A stretch of DNA of 64,000 nucleotides from a virus, in the IMG/VR virus record IMGVR_UViG_3300036861_000610, positions 83,890 to 147,889 of that record; one strand, written 5' to 3'. Shown in pieces: positions 32,331-61,795 of this stretch. Under the pieces are notes generated by a model, which was given only the letters and a program-made list of their open reading frames with translations, did no database searches and was not told the DNA's origin. Position 1 is the first letter of the stretch. Every line of letters begins with the position of its first letter. The position numbers and the translations under genes were made by a program.

Positions 32331-33596
32331 TCAAACCGTGGCGCCGCTGGCGTTCACAGTACGGCCATTTGCGTCGTTGATGTTTCCGGACCAGGCGATG
32401 TTGGGGTCGACGCACTCGTCCGTCAAGCCGTAGGTGGCCGAGTGCTCGTTGCCTGTCTTGGCTGGATAGAAACGGTTGTTCCGTACGATCCAGTTTTTGC
32501 CGTTTTCGCTGCAGTACAGCGTGTAGGCGCCCGCGGACAAGAAGTTGTTCTCGATCGTCCACCCGCTGTTCTTGTCCGGGTTAGTGATGATCGAGGAGGT
32601 GATTGGGTTGACTCCGGCGAATGTGTTGTGCCGGATGAGCACCCCATTGCCGCCTTGCGACTGGATGTCGTCGCCGTGCCCCTCAGAGGTTGCCTCGCGG
32701 GCCGACAGGTACGAGTCGATGACGGAGGAGCCTTCGCCCATCTCCAGTGCGTTCTCGCAGTCGTGGATGTACACCCGCGAGGCCGCGAAGCGCGCCCAGG
32801 CGATGCCGGTTCCACGACCGTCCTTGCAGTTGACCTCGGAGTCACTGATGGTCAAGCTGCCGTTGCCAGTCATCTCCACGCCGTAGAAGCATGGCCCAAT
32901 GATTCGGCTGTTGCGGATGATGACGTTGGGCGCCGCGACAGTGATGCAACCCATCGCCTTGCCGTCGATCACCGTGTTGGCGGTGGTGATTCGCTGCGGC
33001 CCCGTGTATGGGGTCAGCGTCAGCACCTTCACGCCAGTTGAGCCGCCGGGTCCGGCTGTGGGGTAACCACAGGCCGCGAGCCGGTCGAAGCAGCCGGTCA
33101 GCACCGTTCCTGGCGGCGTGGTGGCTGGGGGTGTAGTCGCCGGGGGTGTGGTGACCGGTGGTGTTGTTGCCGGCGGGGTGGTGACCGGTGGTGTTGTTGC
33201 CGGCGGGGTGGTGACCGGTGGTGTGGTCGTGGGTGGTGCTGTAGTTGTGGGTGGCGGCGTGGTTGCCGGCGGCGTAGTGGGCGTTGCCGTGGGGCTGGTG
33301 GATGGAGTCGGCGAAGCCGTGGGGCTTGCCGACGGGCTGACCGTCGGGCTGGTGGACGGTGCGGCAGGCGGTGGACCGATGCAGGTCAGCGTCACCGTGA
33401 ATGTGCCATCGGGCGCCACGGGGGCACTGACGGGCTTGTCGCATTCGACGGTGGGCTGTGCGCTGAACGTCCGGGCCGCGTACCCAGCGGTGGCTGGACC
33501 GGCAATGAACCATGCGACCGCGAGGGCTGGGATGAGCCAGCGCGGTGTAGTAATTCGCCGATACCAGGGCTCTGGTGCTGCGTGTCTTGGTGCCAT
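32331..33596 (-). CDS. Membrane-anchored/secreted protein with Pro/Thr linker and right-handed beta-helix domain
   Basis: N-terminal hydrophobic segment; TTPP[VA] repeats; beta-helix-like NVIIRNSRI, HGDDIQ, VLIRHNT, TIENN. Confidence 0.7.
   Translation of the reverse strand: MAPRHAAPEPWYRRITTPRWLIPALAVAWFIAGPATAGYAARTFSAQPTVECDKPVSAPVAPDGTFTVTLTCIGPPPAAPSTSPTVSPSASPTASPTPSTSPTATPTTPPATTPPPTTTAPPTTTPPVTTPPATTPPVTTPPATTPPVTTPPATTPPATTPPGTVLTGCFDRLAACGYPTAGPGGSTGVKVLTLTPYTGPQRITTANTVIDGKAMGCITVAAPNVIIRNSRIIGPCFYGVEMTGNGSLTISDSEVNCKDGRGTGIAWARFAASRVYIHDCENALEMGEGSSVIDSYLSAREATSEGHGDDIQSQGGNGVLIRHNTFAGVNPITSSIITNPDKNSGWTIENNFLSAGAYTLYCSENGKNWIVRNNRFYPAKTGNEHSATYGLTDECVDPNIAWSGNINDANGRTVNASGATV
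33110..33350 (-). repeat. Coding tandem repeats (TTPPV/TTPPA; SPTASP)
   Basis: 15-nt periodic repeats encoding the Pro/Thr linker, including a 30-nt near-exact duplication at about 33143-33218. Confidence 0.8.
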
Positions 33597-37735: not shown

Positions 37736-38329
37736 TCAGGCGGCGGCCGGAGCCGGTTCCTCGATGGTGGTGTCGGCGGTGGTGGGGGTCTCCGCCGTCT
37801 CGGCGGCCTTGGCGGCGGCGGCTTCCTGGCGGGCGGCGAGCTTGACCATAACGAGCTTCAGGTGCTCCTCGGTCCAGCCTTCGACCGTTGCGGCGGCGGC
37901 CTCGGCGCGGGTCTGGCCGGCGCGGTTGAGGCCGTCCTTGTTGAACCCGTCCTTGTTGAAGCCGCGGTAGTTGTAGCCCTCCGCGTTGTACCCCTCGCGG
38001 TTGTACCCGCTGCGGTCGTACCCGTCCTTGTTGTAGCCGTGGCGGTTGAAGCCCTGCGTGTTGTAGCCCTCGACGTTGCGGCCGTTGATGTCGAAGCCGG
38101 CGGCATTGTAGTACTTCTCGTAGCCGGTGGGCCGCGTGCCGGTGATGATCTGGGTGAGGGCGTAGTTGACGGTGTCGCAGTGCTGGTTGCTGTGGGCCCA
38201 GCTGATGGTCCGGTCGAACAGCCAGGGCAGCACGGCGGCGAGCTGCTCGTCGGTGGGCTTGGGGGCGTCGTAGGTGTGCTCCGGGTTCGCGTTCATGAAT
38301 GCGAGCAGCGGGTTGGTTTCGGTGGTCAT
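37736..38329 (-). CDS. G[YF][ND]xx pentapeptide-repeat protein, paralog 3
   Basis: About 13 repeats (GYNTQ GFNRH GYNKD GYDRS ...) ending AGQTR...VEGWTEE. Confidence 0.75.
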   Translation of the reverse strand: MTTETNPLLAFMNANPEHTYDAPKPTDEQLAAVLPWLFDRTISWAHSNQHCDTVNYALTQIITGTRPTGYEKYYNAAGFDINGRNVEGYNTQGFNRHGYNKDGYDRSGYNREGYNAEGYNYRGFNKDGFNKDGLNRAGQTRAEAAAATVEGWTEEHLKLVMVKLAARQEAAAAKAAETAETPTTADTTIEEPAPAAA

Positions 38330-38399: not shown

Positions 38400-39104
38400 C
38401 TACGCAGCAGCAGCGGCCGTGCCACCGGCCTTGGCCGGCACCGCCTTCTTGACGGTGCCCTTCTTGGCTCCGGCCGCCGTCTTCTTGGGTGGTGTCTGTC
38501 GGGCGGTCTTCTTGGTCGGCGCCTCAGCGACAGCTTCCATGACCTCCGCGGGCGGCTCCTTGGCCGCTTCGAGCTGCGCGAGGTGGGCGGCGATGGCGGC
38601 GGCGAACTCGTCGGACCAGCCGGTCACTTCCTTGGTGACGAGCTGCTCCCGGGTGTTGCCGTAGTAGTCGCGGCCGGCGGCGTTGAAGCCGTACTTGTCG
38701 AAACCGTCGCGGTTGTAGCCGTTCTTGTCGTAGCCGTCACGGTTGAAGCCGTAACGGTCGAGGCCGTCCTTGTTGAAGCCGTTGGGGTCGTAGCCGTCCC
38801 GGTTGAAGCCCTCGATGTTGCGGCCACTCTTGGCGTTGTAGCCGGACGAGTCGGGGAAGCCGTACCGGGGCGCGTTGATGCCGAGGATGTGAGCGAAGGT
38901 GATTTCGGCGTTCTCGCAGAAGTACTTCTCCCTAGCGAATCGCGCCATGCGGTCCATGATGTAGGGCAGTACCGCATTCATCTCGTCGGCGGTGGGGACC
39001 CGCGCCTCGTAGGGTCCGGTGGGGAGTGCGAGTTGCTTCCCCAGCTCCCGGGCCTTTTCCCAGGAGCGCGGGTCCCCGTTTGTGACGTCTGCCAAGCCTG
39101 CCAT
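38400..39104 (-). CDS. G[YF][ND]xx pentapeptide-repeat protein, paralog 2, with Lys/Ala tail
   Basis: GFNRD GYDPN GFNKD ... GNTR...VTGWSDE. Confidence 0.75.
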   Translation of the reverse strand: MAGLADVTNGDPRSWEKARELGKQLALPTGPYEARVPTADEMNAVLPYIMDRMARFAREKYFCENAEITFAHILGINAPRYGFPDSSGYNAKSGRNIEGFNRDGYDPNGFNKDGLDRYGFNRDGYDKNGYNRDGFDKYGFNAAGRDYYGNTREQLVTKEVTGWSDEFAAAIAAHLAQLEAAKEPPAEVMEAVAEAPTKKTARQTPPKKTAAGAKKGTVKKAVPAKAGGTAAAAA

Positions 39105-39142: not shown

Positions 39143-39583
39143 TCAGGCCGCGTCCGCCAGGGCCGCCAGGCGGTCGGCGAGCAGGTTCAGGACGACGGCG
39201 GCGGTCTCCCCGTCCCAGCCCTCAACCATGGTCTCGATGACCTCCTCGCGGGTCTGGCCGGCGGCGTTGACGCCGTCCTTGTTGAAGCCGTCCTTGTCGA
39301 AGCCCTGGCGGTTGTAGCCGTCGGCGTCGAGGCCGGTCGCCGGGTCGTAGCCGCCGCGCACGCCCTTGGCGTTGCGGCCGTCGGAGTCGACGAAGCCGCC
39401 GACCGGCGTCCGGACGCCGAGGTCGCGCAGCAGCATCTCCAGGCCGACGTCGACGAGGTTGGCGTAGCCGTTGTCGCGACCGAGCCGCACGGCCCGGTCG
39501 ATGAGCCACGGGATGTACGGGGCGGCGTCGCGGGCATTGGGGGCGACGGGACGGTACGGGGCGGTGGGGGCGGTGATGGTCAT
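39143..39583 (-). CDS. G[YF][ND]xx pentapeptide-repeat protein, paralog 1
   Basis: GLDAD GYNRQ GFDKD GFNKD GVNAA GQTR...VEGWDGE. Confidence 0.75.
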   Translation of the reverse strand: MTITAPTAPYRPVAPNARDAAPYIPWLIDRAVRLGRDNGYANLVDVGLEMLLRDLGVRTPVGGFVDSDGRNAKGVRGGYDPATGLDADGYNRQGFDKDGFNKDGVNAAGQTREEVIETMVEGWDGETAAVVLNLLADRLAALADAA

Positions 39584-44581: not shown

Positions 44582-45004
44582 TCAAGGGTTGATCAAAGAA
44601 AGTTGCTGGTCAAGGCACCTCGGCCGCCAGGGCGTGCTCCGCACCTCGATGCCGGCCCGGCGGGCCAGATTCATGCAGTTGATCGTCCCCCGAGACCCGG
44701 GCCCCGGGAACCCGAGACAGACCGCGGCCCCCAGGTTGACCATCTTGGCGTTGCGCTCGGGCCCCAGGATGCGGCCGTTTACCTTGCGGGCTGGGTGAGG
44801 TTCAACCTTGAAGCCGTGGGCGATGGCCCACTGCTCGGACCAGAGATCGGCACCGCCGTACTCACACTGGCCGTGGACCAGAACGAACTCAGCTGGAAGT
44901 TGGCAAGCTACTACAAATTCGTCGAGTTTCTGCCAGACGATGTCCTTGTCGGCCTCGGGCCAGTCCCTCCAGCCGGTGGTCAAAATTCTTACAGGAAGTT
45001 CCAT
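44582..45004 (-). CDS. YspA/DUF2493-like SLOG family protein
   Basis: RBS AGGAAGGGG; RILTTGWRDW, LVHG...GGAD, GPERNAKMV, FPG..SRGT.NC. Confidence 0.8.
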   Translation of the reverse strand: MELPVRILTTGWRDWPEADKDIVWQKLDEFVVACQLPAEFVLVHGQCEYGGADLWSEQWAIAHGFKVEPHPARKVNGRILGPERNAKMVNLGAAVCLGFPGPGSRGTINCMNLARRAGIEVRSTPWRPRCLDQQLSLINP

Positions 45005-45030
45005 CGTCGCACCCCTTCCTGAAATCCCTA

Positions 45031-45090
45031 ACCAGACCATGCCCTGCCGTGCCACGCCGGACCTAACCCGACCGAACCTGACCCCACCGA
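45031..45090 (-). ncRNA. Array A: 12 perfect GGY-NN pentamers (putative guide RNA)
   Basis: + strand accag accat gccct gccgt gccac gccgg accta acccg accga acctg acccc accga; intergenic. Expression as RNA is inferred. Confidence 0.75.
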
Positions 45091-45093
45091 GTT

Positions 45094-45636
45094 TTACTCC
45101 TCGATGCCGTGACGTCGGAGCATCTCGACAAGGCGATCGAGGCGATCATCTTTGACCAAGGCATCCTTCTCCGTGAGAGCCTGGCGCTTGTCCAGCCGAA
45201 CAACCTGACGCTCGGTCTTTAACTGTCGCCGAGTGAGCTGGTTCATCATCTCTTCCTGTCGGGCAAGATGAAGCTCGATGGCGCTAAGCCGGCGACGTTC
45301 GGCCGAGTCGAGGCGAGTCTGGTCCACGAAGGTAACAAGTCGCTTAGCTCGACGCGTGCTTCGCCGAGACTTTGCCTGCTGATTCAGCCCCAGTCGCTCC
45401 TGCTCCCGTGACTCCACCATCCGATAGCCAACCTTGCGAACTCGGTCGAAGGCTCGCAGATGCTCCGTAAGCATGCGACCTGCGGCATAGTAAAAGGCCC
45501 CACGGACAGAGGCCTTCGGAGTACCGGGCAACAGGTTGTGCAGGGTCTCGTCTGAGACCACGTCGTCAATCTGCATGGTCCGCAGGTGGTCAAAGATGAC
45601 CTGCCACTGGGGCCGAGTTTCCTTGCTTTGGAACAT
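45094..45636 (-). CDS. Accessory protein of RAMP locus 1 (winged-helix-like N-terminus, coiled-coil C-terminus)
   Basis: GGAGG RBS; VRKVGYR wing-like motif; lies between arrays B and A. Confidence 0.7.
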   Translation of the reverse strand: MFQSKETRPQWQVIFDHLRTMQIDDVVSDETLHNLLPGTPKASVRGAFYYAAGRMLTEHLRAFDRVRKVGYRMVESREQERLGLNQQAKSRRSTRRAKRLVTFVDQTRLDSAERRRLSAIELHLARQEEMMNQLTRRQLKTERQVVRLDKRQALTEKDALVKDDRLDRLVEMLRRHGIEE

Positions 45637-45650
45637 CTTTTGGCCTCCCC

Positions 45651-45930
45651 ACCTAACCGAACCTAGCCCAACCTAGCCTTGCCCGACCTGACCCAACCGA
45701 ACCAAGCCAAGCCCGAGGCCCCTACCCAGCCCAACCCCACCAAGCCGGGCCTGACCGTACCGAACCACAGAAGCCTTACGGTACCCAACCTCACCGGACC
45801 GAACCGCGCCCAGCCAGGCCATAGAAGCTTGTGCCCCCCGACTCCCTACCAAACCCAGCCATGCCCCACCGGACAATGCCTGACCACGCCTAGCCTGACC
45901 GCACCAAACCACACCATGCGGAACCCAACC
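45651..45930 (-). ncRNA. Array B: about 50 GGY-NN pentamers in 4 blocks of 10-17 units
   Basis: RCC-NN period 5 on +; short linkers including AGAA at 45769 and 45823; begins right after the RAMP stop codon. Confidence 0.75.
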
Positions 45931-45936
45931 AAAAAG

Positions 45937-46527
45937 CTAGACGACTTCTACGGCAGCATCAAAGCGCCCATACTGCTGCCTGTAGTCGCCAAATCCATAA
46001 AGCTTTCCACCGATAACGGCAATATCGGTCAGTTCGTCGGCATCAATGACGCCAGGGTCGAGCACGATGTCAGATTCCATCGACCAGTTCTTGAACATGG
46101 GCCGGCAGCGGTCAATCTTCGCCTGGCCGACACGGGCGGAGCGGAAGTCAACAAACTCACTGGCCCCACTGTCACCCCAGAGCCCTTCAATGGTGCGTGG
46201 GCCTTTGTATAGCAGCGGATGGACAAGTTCGACGATGACGATGCCGCCCTCGATCTTCTTGCCGCGCCGGCCCGATCGAGCAGCTTCGAGAAGGTTCTTG
46301 AAGATCCAGCTGGCCGGGATGTACGGGCCGATGCCTTCCTCGAAGTACAGGCCGCCCTCCCACTCCACGCGCGCAATCTCCAACCGATCCTCGTCAGTGC
46401 GCTTGCTCGACGGCTTGGCCTTGTTGAGGCGCGACATCTCCTTGGCGAAGGGGTCGAGCGGTGAAGCAAGGCGCACGTTGTGCATGAGCAGTGGACGTGT
46501 GCCGGTCGCCGTCAGTCTGACCTTCAT
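45937..46527 (-). CDS. Stand-alone Cas7/RAMP-like protein 1 (196 aa)
   Basis: RAMP-like layout: N-terminal strand with G (LTATGTRPLLMH), PYIP..(I)FK..L, R..VG....R.RP.F..W, C-terminal G-rich loop GFGDYRQQYGRF. RBS GGAGAGAG before ATG 46527. Confidence 0.7.
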   Translation of the reverse strand: MKVRLTATGTRPLLMHNVRLASPLDPFAKEMSRLNKAKPSSKRTDEDRLEIARVEWEGGLYFEEGIGPYIPASWIFKNLLEAARSGRRGKKIEGGIVIVELVHPLLYKGPRTIEGLWGDSGASEFVDFRSARVGQAKIDRCRPMFKNWSMESDIVLDPGVIDADELTDIAVIGGKLYGFGDYRQQYGRFDAAVEVV

Positions 46528-46555
46528 GATGGTTCTCTCTCCAGGAGCTGGTGAA

Positions 46556-46867
46556 CTAGTAGGGTCGACTTTCGGTGAGTAGCCTGGCCACGGTGGCGGC
46601 CGTCTGGCCGGTCTCCCGGGCAATGTCTTGGGGCATCATGCCGTTCTGCCTGGCAGCCCTGGCAGCAGAGCGACGAATGGTGGCAGTTCCGCCCATTAAC
46701 TGATCTCGCATCAGGGCAATAACTTCGCCCGCAATAACGATGGTTTGCACTTCGTCGTGGCCGGTGAGGATAGTGGTCAGGCACGCCCGTAGCTGGGCTT
46801 GGGCTGGTGTGTCGACCCACTCGTCCGGTGGCCTCAGTGTGTCTTCGACGAGTTGGTCTTTGATCAT
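46556..46867 (-). CDS. Small protein with C-terminal helix-turn-helix
   Basis: GGAGG RBS; GMMPQDIARETGQTAATVARLL. Confidence 0.7.
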   Translation of the reverse strand: MIKDQLVEDTLRPPDEWVDTPAQAQLRACLTTILTGHDEVQTIVIAGEVIALMRDQLMGGTATIRRSAARAARQNGMMPQDIARETGQTAATVARLLTESRPY

Positions 46868-46985
46868 GTGGTGGACCTCCTGGTGGTGCGCTAACGCTCT
46901 TGGCGGATGCGAAGATCGTAGCTTAGGGGGACGTCCGGGTCACGATCCTGACCTGCGGTTTTCCCTAGTCCTCCTCGTCGTCACA

Positions 46986-48316
46986 TCACCATGGCGCGGC
47001 CTCATACAGCAGGTCGAACCCGTCGTACTCGGGCAGTAGCTGAAGGTCGCAGCCAGTGCAACTGAGTCCTCGTGGATCTTCCAGATGACACTGGCCGCAG
47101 TCGCACTGGCCCTGCCTGTCCTCGCGCTCCCACCGATGTTCGTGTGGCGGCGCCGATACAGCACTGCCCCCAGCTACGGCGCGCTGTTCCTCGCGGTAAG
47201 CAACCTCATCGGCGTAGTCCCCCAGAATGTCCATGTGGGCAAGAAGCCGGAACCCCCACTGGGCATGCCACTCCCACTGCCAGGATGGCCTCTTGATCCA
47301 CGCAATATCGTCCAGTTCCCCCTCGTACGGCTCAAGGATGTAGTAGCGGCTGTACCCGGGGACCCAGTTCAAGGTGTACATCACCGCGCCGCAGAACCAG
47401 AACCAGAACGGCTTCATCCGCGGCTGGTAGCGGGTCACCCTTCTGCTCCTTCAGCCTCCGACTGTCGCAGCCAGTTCTCGATCATGTCTTTGAGAAGGAC
47501 AGTGAGCATCATGCGCAGGTCGTTTTCGTCCATCACCTGAAGGAAGTAGGCCAGCTGGCCGGGTACACAGTAGGGGGGACAGTCATGTCCGTCTTCACGG
47601 TGGTCTTTGACTATGACCAGGAAGACGTTGATGGCGTCGCGAACAGCCATCACGTTGGAGGTGGCGATGATCTGTTCTTCCAGGTCCAGGTCACGGGTAC
47701 GGAAGTGCGACGCATCCACCAGGGGCGGAACAACCGGCTCTGGACCTTCATTTCGGCGGCGACTCCATGGCCACTTCATCGTCTTCACCTCCCGGGAAAC
47801 GCAGGATTGTGGGCCAGTTCTGCTTCAGTTCTTCAATGTCTTCCGGCGTGAGCGTTCCGTGCCGCTTGCAGTCCCGACATTCTTTGCCTGGATTGTGGCC
47901 CACGGAGTACAGCACGTCGGTATGCCGATTGAACCAGCGACATCGCAGCAGAAATGCCGAGCGAAACACCCGGTCACGCCACCGGGTGTCCCACTCGATC
48001 CGTACATTGCGGAAAATTCTCATGGACTGACGTCCTGGATCATGGCCTCTAGCTTGCGCAAGGTGGCCAACATTGCGTCGTGTTGTTCAATGGGCGTTGG
48101 CGGTTCGTATGGGTCCCGCTGGCACCGGGCGCAGTCACTGACCGGATGGTCATAGACCGTTACGAGGTGGTAGCAGTCAGGTCGGCCGGCAACATTCGGG
48201 TGGCATAGGGGTAGCAAATTATGTTCCCCGAAGCCGCCCTCATAGTCGCCCATCTGGCGTCCACAGTGGGTGCAGACATTGGGCCGGATGAACTCCACCT
48301 CCATTGCGTCCCCCAT
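46986..48316 (-). CDS. Four small hypothetical genes (46986-47438, 47435-47788, 47748-48023, 48020-48316)
   Basis: Overlap packing; Cys/His motifs. Confidence 0.5.
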
Positions 48317-48325
48317 TTCCGGGTT

Positions 48326-48520
48326 TTAGTCGAACTCGCCGGCCTTCACGCCGACCAACCACGCCTTCCATTCCGCGGACGTGAAACGCAGAAGTGGGCC
48401 ATTTGGGTCCTTCGAATCACGCACCAGTCGATCGGTGCCATCGAGTGCAACTTGGACGCATTCCGAGCTGGTGGCACTGTCGCTAGACTTGCGCCACTCC
48501 AGGTCGGTTTGTTCGTTCAT
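48326..48520 (-). CDS. DUF397 protein
   Basis: WRKSS.S....ECVQVA......VRDSKDP.GP.L.FT..EW. Confidence 0.9.
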   Translation of the reverse strand: MNEQTDLEWRKSSDSATSSECVQVALDGTDRLVRDSKDPNGPLLRFTSAEWKAWLVGVKAGEFD

Positions 48521-48533
48521 GAATTCCTCCTTG

Positions 48534-51484
48534 TCACAGGTTTTCTTGAATAATCTTCTTGGCTTCGGCCACCATGCCACTGACCTCGTGCACCGCATTG
48601 CGCAGCGTGCGGTGCGGGTTGCTCGGCAGCTCCAGTTCGGTTACCAGAGTCTCGATGGATTCCCTGATCTCGCTCTCCAGGCCGATGAGCTTGGCGATCT
48701 GCAGGTCAATCTGGTCGCGCTGCCCGGCCATGGTGCGAACCAGTTCAGCACTAGCAGCCTGGCTGGCCAGAAGGGCCTCTTCGATGACCACCCGCAGAGT
48801 CATTGCCTCATTACGATCCAGGCCGAAAGAGTCTTGAATCTGCCGGACGGCGCTTCGATTGGCCCGGTCCAGCTCTTCAGCCTTGGCTTCCAGGACCCGG
48901 ATGCGGTCCTTCTGGCCAATCTCATCGCGGGCCCACTTGGACAGCGTTGCCTGGATATCCTCCAGGCGAACTTCAATCGCCACAGTCACACTCCGACTTC
49001 CTGAAAACGAACACGCCTACGAAGATCAATAGTCCAACGCCAAGGGCCATCAGTACCAGTCCCAGGACCTTGAACGCATCAACGTAGTCGACGGGGTTGA
49101 TAGCGCTGAGGCTATCGAGTACGTTCATGGTGCCATCACCGGTAAAGCTGTCACGTTTATCGCATTCACCCAGGCTGGTTTGGTTCGCTTCTTATTGGAC
49201 CAGGCGCCAGACGTTTTCTCGGTGAGGACCTGGACCTCAATTTCCCAGCCGGTAGGGGTATCGGACCTCGTACGAGTCGCCTCTACCCAGGTGTAGTTGT
49301 AGGTTTCCCGGGCACGAATGAGGCGGACTTCACCGATGGCCATGACCTGGCCGCGGCCGGCGCCGATGCAGTACAGGACTTTGCCGCCGACGGTGAACCG
49401 CTGACCTAGCCAGTCAACCGCGGAGGTGACGTGGGTGAGCCAGGGGCTGCCCCCGTAGGTGCCTTCAACGAAGGCAGGGATGGGGCCGAACTCGGGAGAG
49501 TGTGGCCACCGGAGCTGTTCCTGGGTCATCAGCCGCGCCGGTGTCCTTCGCCGTCAATGCCTACGTCGCCATTGACCCAGACGGCATCCCCGACTTCAAC
49601 GACTGGCCCGGCGGCGTTTGTTGTCGACACGTTCCTGCTCCTTCACCTTCTTCACCATGTCGTCCAAGGTGAGTTCTGTTTGCTCGCTGCGGCCGATGAT
49701 CCCGGCTTGGCAGAGGTGGTCGTAGGCGCCGATGATGCTGGCGTAGCAGATGCCCAGCTCGGCTGCCTTCTGGGCCCGATAGGTGTAGTGCTGGGCTACC
49801 TCAAACCGTTGGTCTGTAAGCACGGCCCACGCCAGGTTCATGCGCTCATGTGCCTCGTCCAGCACAGTGCTGAGTGCTCTGGCGGTGCCGGCCAGCCGAC
49901 TGCGGCCAGAAGAGAAAGCGCTGATGGCTTTCTGCGCCTGCTCGACCCGACGGACCATCGACTGGTACTCAGCGTCACGGTCGATCACCGGACCAGTTCC
50001 TCAATTTCACGGGCCAAGTTGCCTCCACGGGGTGTGTTGCGTTCATGCCATCCGGCTGCGTGCGCGTCTCGTTCCGGCCACTCGATCTGTCGGCGAACCT
50101 TCTCGGCCAACTCCAACAGCACCACCAGGATCTCGTCGTCGTCGCGGCTCTCTTCAACGATGGCGAGCATCCAGTCAGCCACTACACCGAGGACACGGTT
50201 GATGCGCTTCTCCAGCAGCTGCGGCATGCCCGGCGGCGGGTCCACGCCGGGGGTCAGTCTGCTCCACGGCTCGGAGGCGTACAGCATCTCCCGCAGGGTC
50301 TTCACCTGAGCTTTCGTCTCAGGGTCTTCGGCGGGCGCAGGAACCAGCTCGATGATGAAGCCACCGATCTCGACGCCGGCTGAAGCGCTGCCGGCGCCAC
50401 CTGGGTCGTCAGGGTCGAAGCTGTGACGGCTGGTTGGTCCCAGGAGCAGGTCGCCAGACTGGTCTTCCTCAAACATGTGTTTCTCTCTCCAGGATTGCTG
50501 TGCACTGCTTGCATGGCTCGCGTTCAGCGAGGCCCTCGGGATCTGAATGCCACTTCGCTCGGGGCGGGAGTGCGGCCAGGACCTGGCAGCCGCAGACGGC
50601 CGATTCCATGGGCTCGCCGGGTAGGTTTTTGTCGGCCAAGATGATGAGGTGCTTCTTCTTGCCGGTGCGCAGGTAGAACCAGGCGCGCGGGCTCACGGCT
50701 TTGGCCTCCCGGCGGCTCGGCGGCCGGCGACAACCCTGCGGGCTCGCTTCGGACCATCCAGAGAAACCGAGTCGTCGTCGACCATGAAGACGACAGGCGC
50801 GGAGACGGAGGGGCTGTCGCTGGCGAGCATGATGATCTGGATGGGGTTGTTGATCTTGTGTTGGCAGTCGCACCAGGTGCCACCGCGGCAGTCATCATGT
50901 AACTGTTCCCTGCATTTCGGACAAACCATGACCACCTAGTCCTATCTTGTAGAGGGGTTGGGTAGATCTTCCCTCGTCGAGCCCCAACTACGCTAGGGGG
51001 TGGTGGGGGTGTTATTTCCGTGTGCCTGGCAGTCGCCGTCCTCGCTGTGCTGACTGAAGAGGTGACCGCAGGGGCAACGCTGCGTGGGGGTCAGGTGCAG
51101 CGGCACAGTCTTCGGTATCTTCGTCGGCTCGTCGAGCGTCTCCTCCGAACTGTGCCAAAAATTGAACCTCCAGATCGTCTCATTGAGACAGGTGCACTGG
51201 CCGTTGGCGATCTTCTCCTGGTGCTTGAGCCAGCGCTCAGCCTCCAGGTCGTAGGTCTGCTGGCGCATGGTGTGACAGCACTGCTTCCAGCAGGTCCGGT
51301 ACGCCCAGGAGAGGTACCCGATCCAGCTGAGGCCGACGGTGACGACCATGCGTCCCCACTCGTCGGCGCCGAACTGTGGCCAGCCGAACTTGTGGCGCCA
51401 GTGCGGATCCCAGTCGTGGCGGCTGTTCGTCCAGACTCGATCGGAGGTGTACCACTGGTCTTCTTTTCTGGGGCGGTGAGTCAT
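48534..51484 (-). CDS. Hypothetical genes (48534-48989 coiled coil, 49125-49529, 49596-49988, 49985-50476, 50469-~50696, 50693-~50929, 50993-51484)
   Basis: Consistent strand, overlaps and codon bias; no function recognised. Confidence 0.5.
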
Positions 51485-51560
51485 TGTTAGACCCCCTATT
51501 TCCAAATTTTCTGGGAGGCGATTTTCAAATCAACGCATCGATGTACTTAGACTCATGTAT

Positions 51561-52781
51561 GCCTGCCAAGCCAAGCCCCACCTAGCCGAACGTTGCCCTG
51601 CCTGCCGCACCGCGCCTACCGGACCGTGCCGAGCCATGCCATCCCCACTATGGCCTCACCGTGCCTGCCCTGCCGTACCAAGCTTCAACAGACCCAGCCC
51701 CGCCTCACCTGCCCCGCCTCACCGTGCCTGACCAAAACACACCTCGCCTGCCGTGCCTTGCCTAGCCCCGCCTTACCTACCTAGCCACACCTTGTCGTTG
51801 TGGACCCCGCCACGCCTGCCCTGCCAAGCCGAACCATTCCACGCCTGACCGTGCCTGCCGGGCCGCACCTTGCCATGCCAAAGGACGCCGAGCCCTGTCA
51901 CGCCGAACCTGCCGTACCCCACCATTCCCCGCCGAGTCCTACCTCGCCTGCCATGCCACGCCGGGCCGTAACCAACCTTGCCGGATCTTGCCCTGCCTGC
52001 CACGTCATGCCATGTCGAACCTCGCCAAGCCCATCCGAAACTCGCCTGCCCCGCCGCACCCAGCCACACCTTGTCGTTGTGGACCCCGCCTTGTCACGCC
52101 GTGCCATGCCTGCCCTACCACACCTAGTCGGACCCGAACTCGCCTAGCCGATACCCACCGCGCCTGCCCCGCCGTACCTTGACTTGCCGCGCCATGCCAG
52201 AACTAGCCCTCGCCTCGCCTGCCACGCCTTGTGAAACCTAACCCCACCAAACCGAGCCGGACCCCGTCTTGTTAAACCCAGCCAAGCCCTACCCCAGCCA
52301 CGCCTGCCACACCATGCCCCGCCGAGCCTTTCCTCACCACACCGCACCGGGGCTGCCGCACCTAACCTCACCGCGCCATGTCTCGCCATGCCTGCCCAGC
52401 CGTAACGCCCCTCACCGTGCCCAACCTCGCCATGCCTGCCGAACCTTGCCTCGACGTACCCAGCCCTACCGGGTCCTACCGCCACCTCACCGCGCCTGCC
52501 GAACCTGGCCATATGCTGCCGTGCCGAACCCCGCCACGCCTGCCTAGCCATACCTCGCCGAGCCCCGCCCCCCCCTAGCCTGCCTAGCCGCGCCTCGTTT
52601 CACCCCACCGAGCCTTGTCACAACGCGCCACACCTGCCTCACCCAACCGCACCATGCCATGCCATGACGAACCACGCCTGCCGCGCCCTACGATGCCTTG
52701 CCACAACCGGTATTTCCCTGCCATGCCTGCCTTGCCTTGCCGCACCATGCCTAGATAGCCGAGCCGCACCTGCCATGTCCT
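51561..52781 (-). ncRNA. Array C: about 1.2 kb of GGY-NN pentamers divided into about 26 units by 4-nt RCCT breaks (sense GGC-A-GGY)
   Basis: RCC-NN period 5 on +; 27 breaks between 51561 and 52768; starts immediately after the stop of the accessory gene. Confidence 0.8.
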
Positions 52782-53219
52782 TCAGGCTTCAATCAGGACA
52801 CCGACCCGAACTTCACTCTCAACGAGATCCCAGAATTCCTCGAAGTTCTCGTAGCGACGCTTCAAGGCCTCCCAGTCACGTCGCATCTCTGCCCTAAGTA
52901 GGCGCATGATCATTGGATCCTGGATAACGACCGCGGCCGGCTCGTAGGCGTACTTCCTCGTCCCATCGTCCTTTTTCACTGCATGGAAGGCGCGAATGGA
53001 GATGGGGTTCCCCGTCTTGGGGCTGGTGTAGTTCACCCGCACGGACCTGATCAGGTCGTGCGCTTGGACACGGCGGTACTTTTCCGCCGCGATGGTGTTG
53101 TTCCACTCGAACCTTGTGTGGAGTGGGTGACGGTTGTCGCGGGCAACATCCACAACAAGCGCGGGAGTCAGTTCCCCGCGCTCGTCGTAGATGGCCTGCA
53201 GGTGATCCCGCAGACTCAT
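52782..53219 (-). CDS. Accessory protein of RAMP locus 2
   Basis: AGGAG RBS; LTPALVVDVAR...HPLHTRFEWNNTIAAEKYR motif. Confidence 0.75.
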   Translation of the reverse strand: MSLRDHLQAIYDERGELTPALVVDVARDNRHPLHTRFEWNNTIAAEKYRRVQAHDLIRSVRVNYTSPKTGNPISIRAFHAVKKDDGTRKYAYEPAAVVIQDPMIMRLLRAEMRRDWEALKRRYENFEEFWDLVESEVRVGVLIEA

Positions 53220-53242
53220 GGAACTCCTTCTACTGCCGTGTT

Positions 53243-53887
53243 CTACTTCTGGACGTCCTTGTTGGTGAGGACCTCGATGTCACGCTCCGGGTCGATCATG
53301 TAGGTGCCCATGTCGCCCTTCTTCTCCGGCCGCCACTCCCCGACGCCGACGCCCATGCCTCCGGCGTCGATGAGGGACAAGACGGAGGCCTGCGTCAGCT
53401 GTGAGGTCACGTAGGTGACCCGCAGCTCGGTCTTCCACTCCGAGAATTCGGGGCGGTAACGCAGGTCGGTGCCGCCGTTGCCGACGCGCACGACGTCTTC
53501 GCGCTTCTTGGGCTCGCCTTCGATGATGGCGAGCTGCTGCCCATCCACGCCGACCTCACCGCGGAAGAACAGCACCTGCCGGAGCAGGGTCATCGTGACT
53601 CCGGCGAAGAACCGTGCGCCGCCGATGGTCGATGCCTTGAAGGCGATAACCGGAAGCCCGTACGCGCCATCGTTGGTGCGGTAGAACGCCGCCTCGTACT
53701 CGGCGTCGGGGTCCTTCGGCTGCTTGGGGGTCTTGCGCCCCTGCATCGCGTCGAGCATCTGCTTCTTCGCCTTCTCGGAGAAGCGGTGGATGATCAGCGG
53801 CGACGTCCCCACGATGGGGACGATGAGCGTCTCCGCGTCGATGCGAGGGATCTCGATGATGTTGGTTGTCTTTGCTGCCGTTGCCAT
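53243..53887 (-). CDS. Stand-alone Cas7/RAMP-like protein 2 (214 aa)
   Basis: IVGTSPLIIH, YGLPVIAFK, VRVG...DLRYRPEFSEW, G-rich loop AGGMGVGVGEWRPEKKGDMGTY; GGAGGAG RBS; strong codon bias. Confidence 0.75.
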   Translation of the reverse strand: MATAAKTTNIIEIPRIDAETLIVPIVGTSPLIIHRFSEKAKKQMLDAMQGRKTPKQPKDPDAEYEAAFYRTNDGAYGLPVIAFKASTIGGARFFAGVTMTLLRQVLFFRGEVGVDGQQLAIIEGEPKKREDVVRVGNGGTDLRYRPEFSEWKTELRVTYVTSQLTQASVLSLIDAGGMGVGVGEWRPEKKGDMGTYMIDPERDIEVLTNKDVQK

Positions 53888-53924
53888 GGGTTACTCCTCC
53901 AGGAGTGTCTACTTAGGACGTTTC

Positions 53925-54857
53925 CCATGCCGTGCCGCACCATGCCTTCCTCTCCGAGGAGAGGCTGTACCTTTCCTGACTCGCCTGCCTAGACGTGCCA
54001 AGCCTTCCCGGGCCGGGTCTCACCGAGCCAAGCCACACCTCACCTGCCCCACCCCGCCTAGCCTGCCAAACCGCGCCGTGCCACGACGAACCACGCCTGC
54101 CAAGCCATGCCCTGCCTTCACGTACCCCGCCAAACCGAGCCTGCCCTGCCGGACCAAACCCCAACTCCCCGAACCTGGCCACGCCACGCCCCGCGATGCC
54201 TGCCGAACCCCGCCTTACCCGAAAGAGCCGGGACTTGCCACGCCTGCCCTGCCTCGCCGGACGGTGCCTTACCCAAACGAAACGTGCCGTGCCGCGCCTG
54301 CCTTGCCCTACCATTGCTTGCCGCACCGGGCCTAGCCACAACACACCTCACCTGCCGTACCGAACCGCACCGGATCGAGCCGGGCCCTACCTGCCATGCC
54401 TCTCCTAGCCACACCCCGCCTCGCCTGCCATGCCCGACCCAGCCCCTCCTAACCCCTCGGCGCCGTGCCCCACCTGCCCTACCGCTCCGGACCATTACAC
54501 GCCTGACCGTGCCTAGCCACATCCCGCCTGCCTCACCACATCAAGCAAGCCTCGCCACACCTCGCCCTGCCTGCCATGCCACATCGCGCCAAGCCCAGCC
54601 TTACCATTCCTGCCGGACCGAGCCTTGCCAAGCCCCACCTGACCCCTCCTGACCAGACCGTGCCTGCCGGGCCGCACCCCGCCTCGTCCAGCCTCACCTC
54701 ACCTGCCATGTCGTGCCGCATCACGCCACGCCTCAACTCGCCCCACCTGCCATGCCGAGCCGTGCCATTACTAACCACTCCGAGCCCTACCTCACCTGCC
54801 CAGCCCTGCCTAGCCACATGAAGCCGCGCCCTGTGAAGCCCAACCCCACCACGCCTA
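53925..54857 (-). ncRNA. Array D: about 0.9 kb of GGY-NN pentamers with 19 GGC-A-GGY breaks
   Basis: Breaks at 53983, 54042, 54061, 54095, 54139, 54198, 54242, 54296, 54350, 54389, 54423, 54472, 54526, 54569, 54608, 54662, 54701, 54745, 54794. Confidence 0.8.
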
Positions 54858-60048: not shown

Positions 60049-61795
60049 TTAATTGTTGACTTTATTCTTGCTGACATAAGAGGCCAGTTGCTTTTCGATG
60101 TCAGCAATCGTCTGGTCGATGTGTGCCAGGTGTTGACTAAACTGCCGGGCGACTCTGTCGATCCCGAAGAACGGGTCCAGGTCGGCGGGCACGTCGAGCG
60201 CGGCGGCCAGGGAATCGGCCCAGGTCCAGTGTTCCTCCAGCTCGGCCTTGGCCTCCTCCAGGTCGCCCTTGAGGGCACCCATGTCGACCCGCAGGTGCCG
60301 TTCCTGCTCTCGTAGCGCCTCGATTTCGGCGACGAGGGCTGGAACGTCTGCGACACTGGCACGAATTACATGCGCCACCGTCCCGGGCCACCTTTTGTCT
60401 TCCTTCTGGGAAAAGTCGTAGCGTTCCTTGACCGGCCCAAGGTCGAGGCCCGACGGCGGTTCAAAGGTTTTGTTGGCCATGGCTACGACTCCTGTCCCGC
60501 GGGCACAACGACCAGGCGGCCGGCGCGCTCCTTGACCTTCTCGGTGAGCTTCTTCTTCCGACGCTTCCACCGGTCGTCGTTGTCGATGTCCTTGAACGCG
60601 AACCAGTTCAGCAACTGGAAGGCGTGGGAGAGGGAGTAGTCGAGCATCACTCCCTCCATGACGTGCTTGGCGATGAGGCAGCACACCATGGGCAGGTAGA
60701 ACGGTCGAAGCTCGGCCCAGATCGTCCTTGAGATCTGGAGAAGGCGCGGGTAGCGGCCCCACATCCTGAAGATCCAGATGAAGAACCCAGACCAGGCCCA
60801 CACGGTGGCTGTGATCCGAATGGCTACGAAGACAAGGTCCCAGGTCATGACAGGTCCACCTCCAGGAGCTGGAGGAGAACTCCAGCCCGACGAGTCAACT
60901 CGGCGTGGACTTTTGCCAGTTCCTGAGTGATCCGGAAGAGCCGTTCATTGATGGTGCTGAACAATTCCCCCGCCTTGGGTTCGACGTCGAGCAGCTTGCG
61001 GAGCTGTTCGATGCGGCCGAGCAGTTCGGCAGTGGTGCGCTGCTCCAGGGTGTGCTGCTCCCCCTGGGGGCGAGGGACCAGTTTGTTGATGTCGTACCCT
61101 GCTTCTGCCTCGTCGGCGAGCGCTGCCACCACGTCAGGTGTGAGTACGGTCCCCCCCTTGGTGGCGTGCGTAACCCCGATGCCCTGCGCGCGGAGTCGTT
61201 GCATTGCCGGGCGGAATGCTGTGCCGACCGTACTCATGGGTCGACCCTCGGCTACGTACTGGCGGGCGACGGACTCGATCCAGTGGTCGTGGTGGATGCG
61301 CCAGTTCTCGTCGGTTGTCGTCTGGCCGCAGGGGCAGACATCAGGTTCCCGGGTCTTTTTGCGTGATGGCATCGGGGCTGCCCTCCTTCGTATTGATGCG
61401 GATTTCGGTGACGACGGTGACGGTGTGGCCGGTGGCGGCAATGTGCAGCGCCGCCCACACGTTCCGGTCGACGGCGTTGTTGAACGGGATCGGCAGGATC
61501 GGTTCGCATTCCTTGCAGCCGGCGATGTGGAAAACATCCACGGTCGCCTCGCCCATGATGATGTGGACCTGTTTCACGCTGCGACCTCTGGCCGGTCCAT
61601 GCTGAACTCGTAGGGCTCGTCATTGTCGTAGATGACCCAGTGGTCCTGGACGCCGTCGGGGAAGATGACCTCGAAGCACGGCTGCGGTGGGTCCAGGAGG
61701 GTTGGCGTGAACATGCAGACGCCGACGATGATGGCCCATTCACCTGACCGGAGGCAGTTCGGGTGTGTCCCCCGGATCCAGGTGCCGTGGTTCAT
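60049..61795 (-). CDS. Hypothetical genes (60049-60480 coiled coil, 60483-60848 membrane, 60845-61372, 61341-61577, 61574-61795)
   Basis: Overlap packing. Confidence 0.5.

What the first reader, a model, noticed from the sequence alone, without database searches (positions are those of the whole stretch)
45031..54857. Candidate phage RNA-guided system: lone Cas7/RAMP-like proteins with GGY-NN pentamer arrays (two loci)
Seen: four non-coding arrays (45031-45090, 45651-45930, 51561-52781, 53925-54857) with a strict 5-nt period. On the gene-sense strand a constant GGY alternates with a freely variable NN. I found such arrays only beside the two RAMP-like genes (45937-46527, 53243-53887), each paired with one accessory gene. 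No cas1/2/3/5/6/8 genes and no canonical repeat-spacer array are present. Known: Cas7-type RAMPs polymerise along guide RNA with a fixed nucleotide step. Inference: each subunit binds one GGY and displays the NN, giving a programmable non-contiguous guide. From memory this resembles recently reported viral RAMP plus GGY/NN RNA ('VIPR') systems; I cannot verify that here, so novelty needs checking.
Basis: partly seen in the sequence, partly recalled or inferred. Interest (0 to 1): 0.97.

Follow-up and report, generated by a model that had tools for sequence, protein, structure and literature searches.

The report
Two VIPR guide-RNA systems in phage
This soil phage carries two different copies of the VIPR system described in 2026 (a lone Cas7-like protein, a helper gene and guide RNAs built from GGY-NN five-letter units), so it is a real but already described kind of system, here in an unusually rich form.

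Summary
Four minus-strand tracts (window 45029-45088, 45649-45930, 51563-52781, 53927-54855) have a strict 5-nt GGY-NN period. G, G and Y are near-invariant and NN is near-random. No such tract occurs elsewhere in the window or in shuffles.

- Protein 45937-46527 matches the solved SUSP1 Vipr (PDB 36pp, E 5.8e-23). Its neighbour belongs to the same family as the gene beside vipr in a SUSP1-like phage (vap1).
- Protein 53243-53887 is a divergent paralogue. It hits 36pp at E 4.6e-5, falls in the same PHROG, and its model has a Cas7 fold. It sits with a different, winged-helix-like accessory gene.
- Its two long arrays are "staggered": about 47 guides of 4-12 units, mostly ending GGCAG, with 26 junctions overlapping the next guide by 1 nt.
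- 150 of 160 homologous loci carry same-strand arrays.

Instance-specific points:
- Locus 1 is a 1.55-kb cassette absent from a sister phage.
- Its guides lack the conserved 3' tail seen in relatives.
- A third, orphan array lies outside the window.
- Guide 1D best matches the flanking SLOG gene (17/24 here, 19/24 in the sister phage).
- Natural targets otherwise remain unknown.

This scan has already noted VIPR in at least 216 other genomes.

The parts
45937..46527 (-). vipr-1: 196-aa Vipr (minimal Cas7-like RAMP), SUSP1-type
   Evidence: phmmer hit to PDB 36pp_D 'SUSP1 Vipr protein', E 5.8e-23, residues 4-192 against 5-188. phrog_4652, E 4.7e-47. H16, R142 and D181-Y182-R183 align with SUSP1 H17, R138 and D177-W178-R179, the GG-reading residues.
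45649..45930 (-). vrRNA array 1M, between vipr-1 and vap1: four GGYNN chains (45846-45930, 17 units; 45771-45820, 10; 45722-45766, 9; 45649-45713, 13), separated by 25, 4 and 8 nt, with no conserved 3' tail
   Evidence: 46 of 49 units conform to GGY. Y is mostly T (63%).
45094..45636 (-). vap1-type accessory gene (180 aa)
   Evidence: phrog_5926, E 2.1e-8. The same family covers the gene directly downstream of vipr in Felixounavirus wV8 (7e-76) and in LittleE, MakoManhole and Trine.
45029..45088 (-). vrRNA 1D: a single 12-unit guide, all units GGY, ending 24 nt before the start codon of the SLOG gene
45005..46555 (-). Extent of VIPR locus 1 as an indel cassette (vipr-1, 1M, vap1, 1D)
   Evidence: In the sister phage IMGVR_UViG_3300037483_001116 the orthologues of the HTH gene (window 46556-46867) and the SLOG gene (44582-45004) abut with an ATGA overlap. 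That 158-kb record has only one Vipr gene.
44958..44992 (.). Best genome-wide match to guide 1D under the 1-nt-skip rule (17/24). It lies in codons 5-16 of the adjacent SLOG (YAcAr) gene, antisense, with skipped bases on wobble positions
   Evidence: The SLOG assignment is Pfam PF10686, E 5.8e-9. This is a lead, not a demonstrated target.
53927..54855 (-). vrRNA array 2U, upstream of vipr-2: 21 chains of 4-12 units. 18 end in GGCAG and 15 junctions overlap by 1 nt ('staggered')
53243..53887 (-). vipr-2: 214-aa divergent Vipr paralogue (24% identity to Vipr-1 over 101 aligned residues)
   Evidence: phrog_4652, E 2.2e-39. 36pp_D, E 4.6e-5, over the thumb and G-loop region. AlphaFold2 model with pLDDT 81 hits Csm3, Cmr4, Cas7-11 and type VII Cas7 with Foldseek probability 1.0 and E from 1.6e-5. 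H34, R145, W185 and R186 are invariant and E184 nearly invariant in 32 homologues.
52782..53219 (-). vap-2: 145-aa accessory protein, with a winged-helix-like N-terminal domain and a 43-residue C-terminal helix
   Evidence: phrog_15946, E 1.6e-33. The same family follows vipr in phages Saal and Pipp and in the sister phage. The model has pLDDT 92. Residues 1-100 match winged-helix domains at Z about 6, which is middling.
51563..52781 (-). vrRNA array 2D, downstream of vap-2: 26 chains of 4-11 units. 21 end in GGCAG and 11 junctions overlap by 1 nt
53295..53326 (-). Predicted footprint on vipr-2 (codons 188-198, in codon register) of a guide from another phage (L067 chain at 4608), 19/22
   Evidence: The same guide hits the orthologous site of two other phages at 20/22. 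Statistical support is modest.

Best explanation
The window holds two complete VIPR (Viral Interference Programmable Repeat) systems on the minus strand of a 148-kb uncultured actinobacterial-type phage. Each encodes a minimal Cas7-like Vipr protein. By homology with SUSP1 Vipr, the protein should polymerise along a vrRNA with one protomer per 5-nt unit. It would hold each GGY with a conserved His, thumb Arg and G-loop D/E-aromatic-Arg, and present each NN. The NN dinucleotides would then read double-stranded DNA with one skipped base per unit (NNxNNx...), and the bound filament would block transcription. The accessory DNA-binding-type protein would assist.

Locus 1 (vipr-1, four guides, vap1, one guide) is SUSP1-like in its proteins but has tail-less guides. 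It is a 1.55-kb cassette missing from a sister phage.

Locus 2 (21 guides, vipr-2, vap-2, 26 guides) uses the 'staggered' array form. Guides mostly end in GGCAG and often share that last G with the next guide's first GGY, so the register slips by one base at each junction. A sixth tract elsewhere in the genome supplies about six more locus-2-style guides.

What is shown here: the sequence features, the homology, the fold, and the family-wide linkage of gene and array. What is inferred: transcription and processing of the arrays, loading of each array by its own Vipr, DNA silencing, and rival mobile elements as targets.
For: Array statistics and uniqueness. Vipr-1 against solved SUSP1 Vipr, E 5.8e-23 over the full length, with contact residues aligned. 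Vipr-2 in the same PHROG, with a 36pp hit and a Cas7 fold. The vap1 family is shared with a SUSP1-like Felixounavirus. The vap-2 family is shared across the Vipr-2 clade and looks winged-helix-like. Same-strand arrays are present in 5 of 5 cultured actinophage relatives, 77 of 80 IMG/VR loci and 73 of 80 cellular loci, against 6 and 0 chains on the opposite strand. 1-nt staggered junctions occur in 69 of 80 viral relatives and in phages Pipp and Saal, matching the legend of fig. S18 in 10.64898/2026.04.26.720920. NN content is almost fully replaced between this phage and a sister phage whose Vipr-2 is 94% identical, as expected for hypervariable guides. No guide matches the phage's own genome above the shuffled null, as the preprint reports for other VIPRs.
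Against: There is no expression, processing or binding data for this phage, and its host is unknown. No natural target reaches the preprints' threshold of at least 80% NN match. The best is 19/24 (79%) in the sister phage, and exact pattern scans found nothing meaningful. Locus 1 guides lack the conserved 3' tail that the closest relatives (67% identical L022, MakoManhole, Trine, LittleE) and SUSP1 have, so their maturation is unexplained. About 10-15% of locus 2 units are degenerate (not GGY). The VIPR type numbers (I-VII) could not be assigned because the preprint's supplementary tables are not held.
Confidence: 0.9

Rival explanations
1. Locus 1 is a decaying or non-autonomous VIPR remnant. 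Its Vipr-1 gene is intact, but its guides have lost the 3' tail needed for maturation or capping, so they are poorly processed or inactive. Only locus 2 would be a working system.
For: The closest Vipr-1 relatives all have a conserved structured tail after each GGYNN tract, and SUSP1 vrRNAs have a pseudoknot tail that caps the filament. In the window the four 1M chains are separated only by 25, 4 and 8 unconserved nucleotides.
Against: Both ORFs are open, with the GG-reading residues kept. GGY conformity at locus 1 is the highest in the genome: 46/49 and 12/12 units. Locus 2 relatives work with no tail at all by the preprint's description. Guide 1D has a statistically unusual match to a sister-phage gene.
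Confidence: 0.15
2. The guides are aimed mainly at the bacterial host (defence or other chromosomal genes), not at rival phages or satellites. On this reading the large repertoire is a host-takeover or anti-defence device.
For: No convincing target was found in about 1.2 Mb of related phage and prophage loci or in the sister phage. The preprints report decoy and host-directed vrRNAs in one case.
Against: Published natural targets are overwhelmingly mobile elements. Guide 1D found no match with 3 or fewer mismatches in 401 genomes of the class holding the closest cellular Vipr-2 homologue. The host is unknown, so the idea is essentially untested.
Confidence: 0.2
3. The long arrays act chiefly as decoys. 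Their RNAs would titrate the Vipr proteins of competing phages, as satellite solo vrRNAs do, and would not guide this phage's own proteins.
For: Solo and orphan vrRNAs that redirect a rival's Vipr are documented. This genome has an orphan array far from any vipr gene.
Against: The arrays flank intact vipr and vap genes on the same strand, as in 150 of 160 homologous loci. The simplest reading is cis supply of guides.
Confidence: 0.08
4. The tracts are not RNA genes. They would be chance low-complexity DNA or Gly/Pro-rich coding repeats.
For: Mechanical ORFs of 50-140 codons overlap the tracts, and GenBank annotators have called ORFs over equivalent tracts in phages Pipp and LittleE.
Against: A 5-nt period with frequent 1-nt register slips cannot hold a reading frame. 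None appear in shuffles. The tracts are strictly strand-linked to vipr in 150 of 160 loci. Positions 4-5 are near-random.
Confidence: 0.01

Closest known systems
Type II VIPR of Escherichia phage SUSP1 (Vipr + vap1 + tailed vrRNAs; bioRxiv 10.64898/2026.04.26.720920 and .720927; PDB 36pp)
   Same: Vipr-1 aligns over its full length (E 5.8e-23, about 31% identity) with the GG-reading residues conserved. The accessory gene is in the same family (phrog_5926). Guides have 9-17 GGYNN units. The locus is phage-borne and holds two genes.
   Different: There is no pseudoknot or other conserved 3' tail. The guides sit between vipr and vap and after vap. Y is mostly U. The host lineage is actinobacterial-type and GC-rich. 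The locus coexists with a second, different VIPR. Expression and targets are untested here.
VIPR 'staggered vrRNA arrays' (fig. S18 of 10.64898/2026.04.26.720920; described there but not among the architectures confirmed by sRNA-seq)
   Same: At locus 2 and in the orphan array, consecutive guides overlap by 1 nt, so the end of one marks the start of the next. 26 such junctions occur in the window.
   Different: The junction here has a fixed signature (GGCA|GGYG, guide lengths 5k-1). Arrays lie on both sides of the operon and total about 2.1 kb. By my count of chains of at least 6 units, only two of 80 viral relatives exceed the window's 35 chains/1510 nt; their median is 6 chains/285 nt. I could not see the figure or tell which VIPR type it belongs to.
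Solo or orphan vrRNAs and anti-vipr guides of SUSP1-family phages and F5 satellites (bioRxiv 10.64898/2026.10.15.759431)
   Same: An array with no adjacent vipr lies at G000:C1:61358-61605. Guides in other Vipr-2-clade phages match vipr-2 genes of rivals in codon register, including this phage's vipr-2 at 19/22.
   Different: This genome keeps its vipr genes. The anti-vipr signal in this clade is statistically modest under a unit-permutation null.
Cas7 backbone subunits of class 1 CRISPR-Cas effectors (Csm3, Cmr4, Cas7, Cas7-11)
   Same: The Vipr-2 model has the RRM core, thumb and glycine-rich loop fold (Foldseek probability 1.0, TM 0.45-0.55). Both polymerise along a guide with a fixed nucleotide step.
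   Different: There is no CRISPR repeat-spacer array, no Cas1 and no other cas genes. The step is 5 nt with 3 bases sequestered, not 6 nt with 1 flipped. The protein has a single RRM. Sequence identity to Cas7 is about 10%.

Membership tests
VIPR system (Vipr + vrRNA + vap) | A Vipr protein: a minimal single-RRM RAMP homologous to the founding Vipr family | tested here: met
   P0001 against 36pp_D, E 5.8e-23 over the full length. P0002, E 4.6e-5 over the thumb and G-loop. Both fall in phrog_4652 (E 1e-39 to 1e-47). The P0002 model has a Cas7-type fold.
VIPR system (Vipr + vrRNA + vap) | Residues that read GGY (SUSP1 H17, R138, D177, W178, R179) | tested here: met
   Vipr-1 has H16, R142, D181, Y182 and R183. 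Vipr-2 has H34, R145, E184, W185 and R186; all but E184 (at least 90%) are invariant in 32 homologues. The substitutions W to Y and D to E are conservative.
VIPR system (Vipr + vrRNA + vap) | Flanking same-strand tandem GGY-NN (YNNGG) units, at least 4 per vrRNA, with hypervariable NN | tested here: met
   52 chains of 4-17 units in the window. Positions 4-5 carry at most 0.21 bits. NN content is replaced in a sister phage with 94% identical Vipr-2.
VIPR system (Vipr + vrRNA + vap) | A minimal locus with one adjacent accessory (vap) gene and no cas genes or CRISPR array | tested here: met
   There is one vap per locus. No Cas1 in the genome, no PADLOC hit and no repeat-spacer-like array. Other cas families were not searched one by one.
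VIPR system (Vipr + vrRNA + vap) | vrRNAs are transcribed, processed and bound by Vipr | not testable with these tools
   This needs sRNA-seq and RIP. No promoter or terminator consensus stands out around the loci.
VIPR system (Vipr + vrRNA + vap) | Guides match natural DNA targets under the 1-nt-skip rule (at least 80% NN identity in the preprints) | tested here: inconclusive
   The best match is guide 1D at 19/24 (79%; 22/24 allowing G:U) on the sister phage's SLOG gene and 17/24 on the phage's own copy. Nothing stands out for the other guides in the own genome, the sister genome or about 1.2 Mb of related loci. No tool here could search the large collections with mismatches allowed.
Type II VIPR (SUSP1 / P. 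fulva clade) | Vipr of the SUSP1 lineage together with vap1 | tested here: met
   Locus 1 only.
Type II VIPR (SUSP1 / P. fulva clade) | An invariant structured 3' tail after each repeat tract | tested here: not met
   There is no conserved element after any of the five locus-1 guides. Relatives have one. I therefore call locus 1 'type II-like', not a type II member.
VIPR with staggered vrRNA arrays (fig. S18) | Adjacent vrRNAs derived from positions overlapping by 1 nt | tested here: met
   There are 15 + 11 one-nt overlaps in arrays 2U and 2D. Spacings between successive punctuation motifs are 5k-1 in most intervals, and 39 of 47 chains end in GGCAG.
Class 1 CRISPR-Cas | A CRISPR repeat-spacer array and an adaptation or other cas module next to the Cas7 homologue | tested here: not met
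   Only the Cas7-like fold is shared.

The most novel reading that the evidence does not exclude
The locus-1 cassette may carry a guide (1D) aimed at its own insertion neighbour in genomes that lack the cassette. Guide 1D sits 24 nt from the SLOG gene's start codon. Its single best match in the whole genome is that gene's conserved N-terminal motif (17/24, below the working threshold). Its single best match in the cassette-free sister phage is the orthologous site (19/24, or 22/24 allowing G:U pairs), antisense and in codon register. If real, a mobile VIPR cassette would silence a conserved gene of cassette-free rivals while its own host genome carries an escape allele. That would be a selfish, marker-exclusion-like use of a gapped guide. 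In the same phage a second, orthogonal VIPR with a different guide punctuation would run about 50 further guides.
Probability: 0.25. Interest if true: 0.6.

Novelty: new member of a known kind. Interest (0 to 1): 0.3.

Why it matters
As a class this is already in print, so the find mainly adds a well-dissected example from a large actinobacterial-type soil phage. It is useful in three ways.

- One genome holds two divergent Vipr proteins (24% identity over the aligned 101 residues) with visibly different guide formats: tail-less and U-rich, against GGCAG-punctuated, staggered and C-rich. That makes it a natural test bed for how a Vipr recognises its own guides.
- The staggered format was described but not experimentally confirmed. 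Here it has a sharp sequence signature, and I found it in 69 of 80 viral relatives. That gives a concrete prediction for end-mapping.
- The presence or absence of a whole VIPR cassette between two sister phages, together with the guide-to-flanking-gene match, gives a testable lead on how these cassettes spread and what they are aimed at.

Tried and rejected
- **Near-identical DNA:** a search of the region in the phage collection found no match.
- **Rfam:** no family in the window, so there are no hammerhead-interspersed arrays here.
- **Exact 1-nt-skip pattern scans:** two long locus-1 guides gave 0 hits in IMG/VR. A 9-unit core of guide 1D gave 10 hits in metagenomes, which is within chance expectation, and 9 of them have an in-frame stop.
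- **Guide 1D with up to 3 mismatches:** no hit in 401 genomes of the class that holds the closest cellular Vipr-2 homologue.
- **Single-sequence searches:** the search for SLOG-gene relatives in IMG/VR and for Vipr-2 in cellular genomes found nothing. The profile search did work.
- **Guide 2U_509:** its apparent excess of hits (57 against 10) is a codon-composition artefact with scattered positions, so I rejected it.
- **Family-wide excess of high-identity hits:** the count was 31 against 1 with base shuffling. It shrinks to 28 against 3-9 with unit-order permutation, so only the multi-locus anti-vipr-2 guides are kept as a lead.
not reproduced. The own gene gives 17/24 and the sister phage 19/24.
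- **vap-2 fold:** no Foldseek match below E 0.1. Only middling winged-helix similarity by VIA-align.
- **Closed or missing resources:** The preprint's supplementary tables are not held, so type numbers could not be assigned.

Full report
**1. The observation**

Read on the minus strand, four tracts consist of GGY followed by two free bases, repeated every 5 nt. A phase-aware scan flags only these regions of the 64-kb window, and only on that strand. In the whole 147,889-bp genome the same detector finds them plus one further tract outside the window. It finds none in 20 shuffles.

After segmentation the tracts are:
- 45029-45088: one chain of 12 units.
- 45649-45930: four chains of 17, 10, 9 and 13 units.
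- 51563-52781: 26 chains.
- 53927-54855: 21 chains.

Over 454 units, positions 1-3 are G (0.94-1.0), G (0.89-1.0) and C/T (0.93-1.0). Positions 4-5 carry 0.00-0.21 bits.

**2. It is a known kind**

A literature search found three 2026 bioRxiv preprints on VIPR, Viral Interference Programmable Repeat systems. They describe:
- A minimal RAMP, Vipr.
- Usually one accessory gene, vap.
- vrRNAs of alternating GGY/NN.
- A 1-nt-skip code, in which each NN pairs with DNA and every third target base is skipped.
- Transcriptional silencing of rival mobile elements.
- Seven types, with several array architectures, including 'staggered arrays with overlapping vrRNAs'.

The cryo-EM paper shows one protomer per repeat. 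G1 is read by H17 and D177, G2 by R138 and W178, and Y3 sits in a pocket with R179.

**3. The proteins**

P0001 (45937-46527) matches PDB 36pp chain D, 'SUSP1 Vipr protein', at E 5.8e-23 across residues 4-192. H16, R142 and D181-Y182-R183 sit on the contact residues.

P0002 (53243-53887) matches the same chain at E 4.6e-5 over the thumb and G-loop, with R145 and E184-W185-R186. Both proteins belong to phrog_4652 over their full length. They are only 24% identical to each other over 101 aligned residues.

An AlphaFold2 model of P0002 (pLDDT 81) hits Csm3, Cmr4, Cas7-11 and type VII Cas7 chains at Foldseek probability 1.0. The Vipr-2 family is large, with 3,083 clusters at E of 1e-5 or better.

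**4. The accessory genes**

P0003 (45094-45636) is in phrog_5926. So is the gene directly after vipr in the SUSP1-like Felixounavirus wV8 (E 7e-76), and in LittleE, MakoManhole and Trine. Locus 1 therefore has the SUSP1-type gene pair.

P0004 (52782-53219) is in phrog_15946. That family is shared with the gene after vipr in phages Saal and Pipp and in the sister phage. Its model (pLDDT 92) has an N-terminal domain resembling winged helices at a middling Z of about 6, followed by a long C-terminal helix. This is consistent with the preprint's 'predicted DNA-binding' vaps but does not establish it.

**5. Linkage of gene and array in relatives**

- All five cultured actinophage relatives examined have same-strand arrays beside the gene.
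- So do the sister phage and the closest Vipr-1 relative.
- A profile scan recovered 80 IMG/VR loci, of which 77 have same-strand chains of at least 6 units, with only 6 chains on the other strand.
- Of 80 cellular-genome loci, 73 have them, with none on the other strand.
- The closest cellular hits are actinobacteria: Thermoactinospora, Nonomuraea, Kribbellaceae and Streptomyces caeni.

**6. Array architecture**

*Locus 2 and the orphan tract.* These are punctuated by GGCA|GGYG. The spacings between successive punctuation motifs are 39, 44, 49, 54... nt (5k-1) in most intervals. Parsed as chains:
- 39 of 47 locus-2 chains end in GGCAG.
- At 26 junctions in the window the last G is also the first G of the next chain.

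This is what the legend of fig. S18 describes. The same junction occurs in Pipp and Saal and in 69 of 80 viral relatives. By chains of at least 6 units, the window's locus 2 has 35 chains covering 1,510 nt, against a family median of 6 and 285 nt. Two relatives are larger, with 56 and 48 chains.

*Locus 1.* This locus is different:
- There is no overlap.
- Y is mostly T.
- The gaps are 25, 4 and 8 nt.
- There is no conserved tail.

By contrast, the 67%-identical relative L022, MakoManhole, Trine and LittleE all follow each tract with a conserved hairpin carrying a GGTTCGA T-loop-like motif. SUSP1-like wV8 has its own, different tail. How locus-1 guides are delimited is unexplained.

**7. Comparison with a sister phage**

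IMGVR_UViG_3300037483_001116 (158 kb) is syntenic with this phage at about 70-76% nucleotide identity.
- Its Vipr-2 is 94% identical, against 75% for vap-2 and 79% for a neighbouring HTH protein.
- Its arrays share almost no guide content with the window's. That fits hypervariable guides under a conserved protein.
- It has a single vipr gene.
- The HTH and SLOG genes that flank locus 1 in the window abut there with an ATGA overlap.

Locus 1 (45005-46555) is therefore an indel cassette.

**8. Targets**

I implemented the preprints' scan (NN?NN?..., both strands).
- No guide matches the phage's own genome above a shuffled-guide null.
- None of the guides of 9 or more units stands out against about 0.7 Mb of viral and 0.5 Mb of cellular related loci.

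The exception is guide 1D. It sits 24 nt upstream of the start codon of the SLOG (PF10686) gene.
- Its only site with at least 17/24 matches in this genome is codons 5-16 of that gene (window 44958-44992).
- Its only site with at least 18/24 in the sister genome is the orthologous position. That site scores 19/24, or 22/24 if G:U pairs count.
- Both sites are antisense, with the skipped bases on wobble positions.
- Under unit-order permutation, P is 2e-4 for the own gene, 0 of 5,000 for the sister gene, and 0.007 genome-wide for the sister genome.

With 37 guides tested, the genome-wide figure alone is not decisive. The coincidence with the flanking gene makes chance unlikely, but 79% is just under the preprints' threshold.

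No better target was found by exact scans or in 401 sampled genomes of the class that holds the closest cellular homologue. An earlier check elsewhere in this scan also found that a similar 'guide spells a motif' claim partly fell. I therefore rate this lead at roughly even odds of being biologically real, and lower for the specific rival-silencing reading.

Conversely, three guides from other Vipr-2-clade phages match vipr-2 genes of rivals in codon register, at 26/30, 20/22 and 17/18. One of them matches this phage's vipr-2 at 19/22, at 53295-53326. Under the stricter permutation null the overall excess is modest. This echoes the anti-vipr solo vrRNAs reported for the SUSP1 family but is not proven here.

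**9. Verdict**

The system is a new member of a known kind: two VIPR systems, one type II-like and one staggered-array. This scan has already noted VIPR in at least 216 other genomes.

The mechanism is assigned by homology. Transcription, processing, loading, orthogonality of the two systems and natural targets all remain to be shown.

Noticed in passing
G000:C1:61358-61605 (+ strand; 22 kb before the window start, outside the window): Third, orphan GGYNN array with the locus-2 style GGCAGGYG punctuation (about 6 chains). It has no adjacent vipr gene and is followed at about 61626-61690 by a hairpin and T-run that look like an intrinsic terminator. The sister phage has short GGYNN tracts far from its vipr gene too, at G001:75050-75119 and G001:139071-139120.
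   Followed up: partly
L003 about 2990-3060 and 3150-3200; L004 about 4580-4630 and 4720-4770; L005 3740-3790 and 5260-5300; L022 2320-2370 and repeats: In Vipr-1 relatives (Gordonia phages MakoManhole and Trine, Mycobacterium phage LittleE, one IMG/VR contig) each GGYNN tract is followed by a conserved ~45-nt element. It folds as an acceptor-like stem stacked on a hairpin with a GGTTCGA T-loop, i.e. a tRNA-like minihelix, possibly an RNase P/Z-type processing signal. ARAGORN does not call these elements as tRNAs. The held text of the first VIPR preprint does not contain the word tRNA.
   Followed up: partly
L001 4614-4883 (Pipp gene 43); L005 3557-3946 (LittleE gene 35, opposite strand); L004 4591-5394 (Trine gene 40, 5' part): Annotated 'hypothetical protein' CDSs in GenBank phage records overlap GGYNN arrays and are probably mis-called, at least in part. 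In wV8 the annotated 'repeat_region DR_4' features (L043 1750-1807, 3143-3200) appear to coincide with vrRNA tails.
   Followed up: no
window 53243-53887 compared with L008 6001-6624: Vipr-2 is 94% identical between the two sister phages. The adjacent vap-2 is 75% identical, a nearby HTH protein 79%, and flanking DNA about 70-76%. This suggests unusually strong constraint or recent exchange of vipr-2.
   Followed up: partly
L077 chain at 4626; L067 chain at 4608; L116 chain at 5077: Guides in other Vipr-2-clade phages match the vipr-2 genes of different phages at 26/30, 20/22 and 17/18, in codon register. They are candidate anti-VIPR guides outside the Enterobacteriaceae phages where such guides were reported.
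   Followed up: partly
window 33112-33238, 37925-38072, 38682-38810, 39266-39304: Tandem Repeats Finder reports 15- and 30-nt periodic repeats (5- or 10-codon units) in what look like minus-strand coding regions with very high GC3. They may be repeat-containing structural or fibre proteins.
   Followed up: no
window 44582-45004 (-): A YspA/cpYpsA-related SLOG-domain gene (PF10686, E 5.8e-9) lies directly downstream of VIPR locus 1. Its function in phages is unknown.
   Followed up: partly
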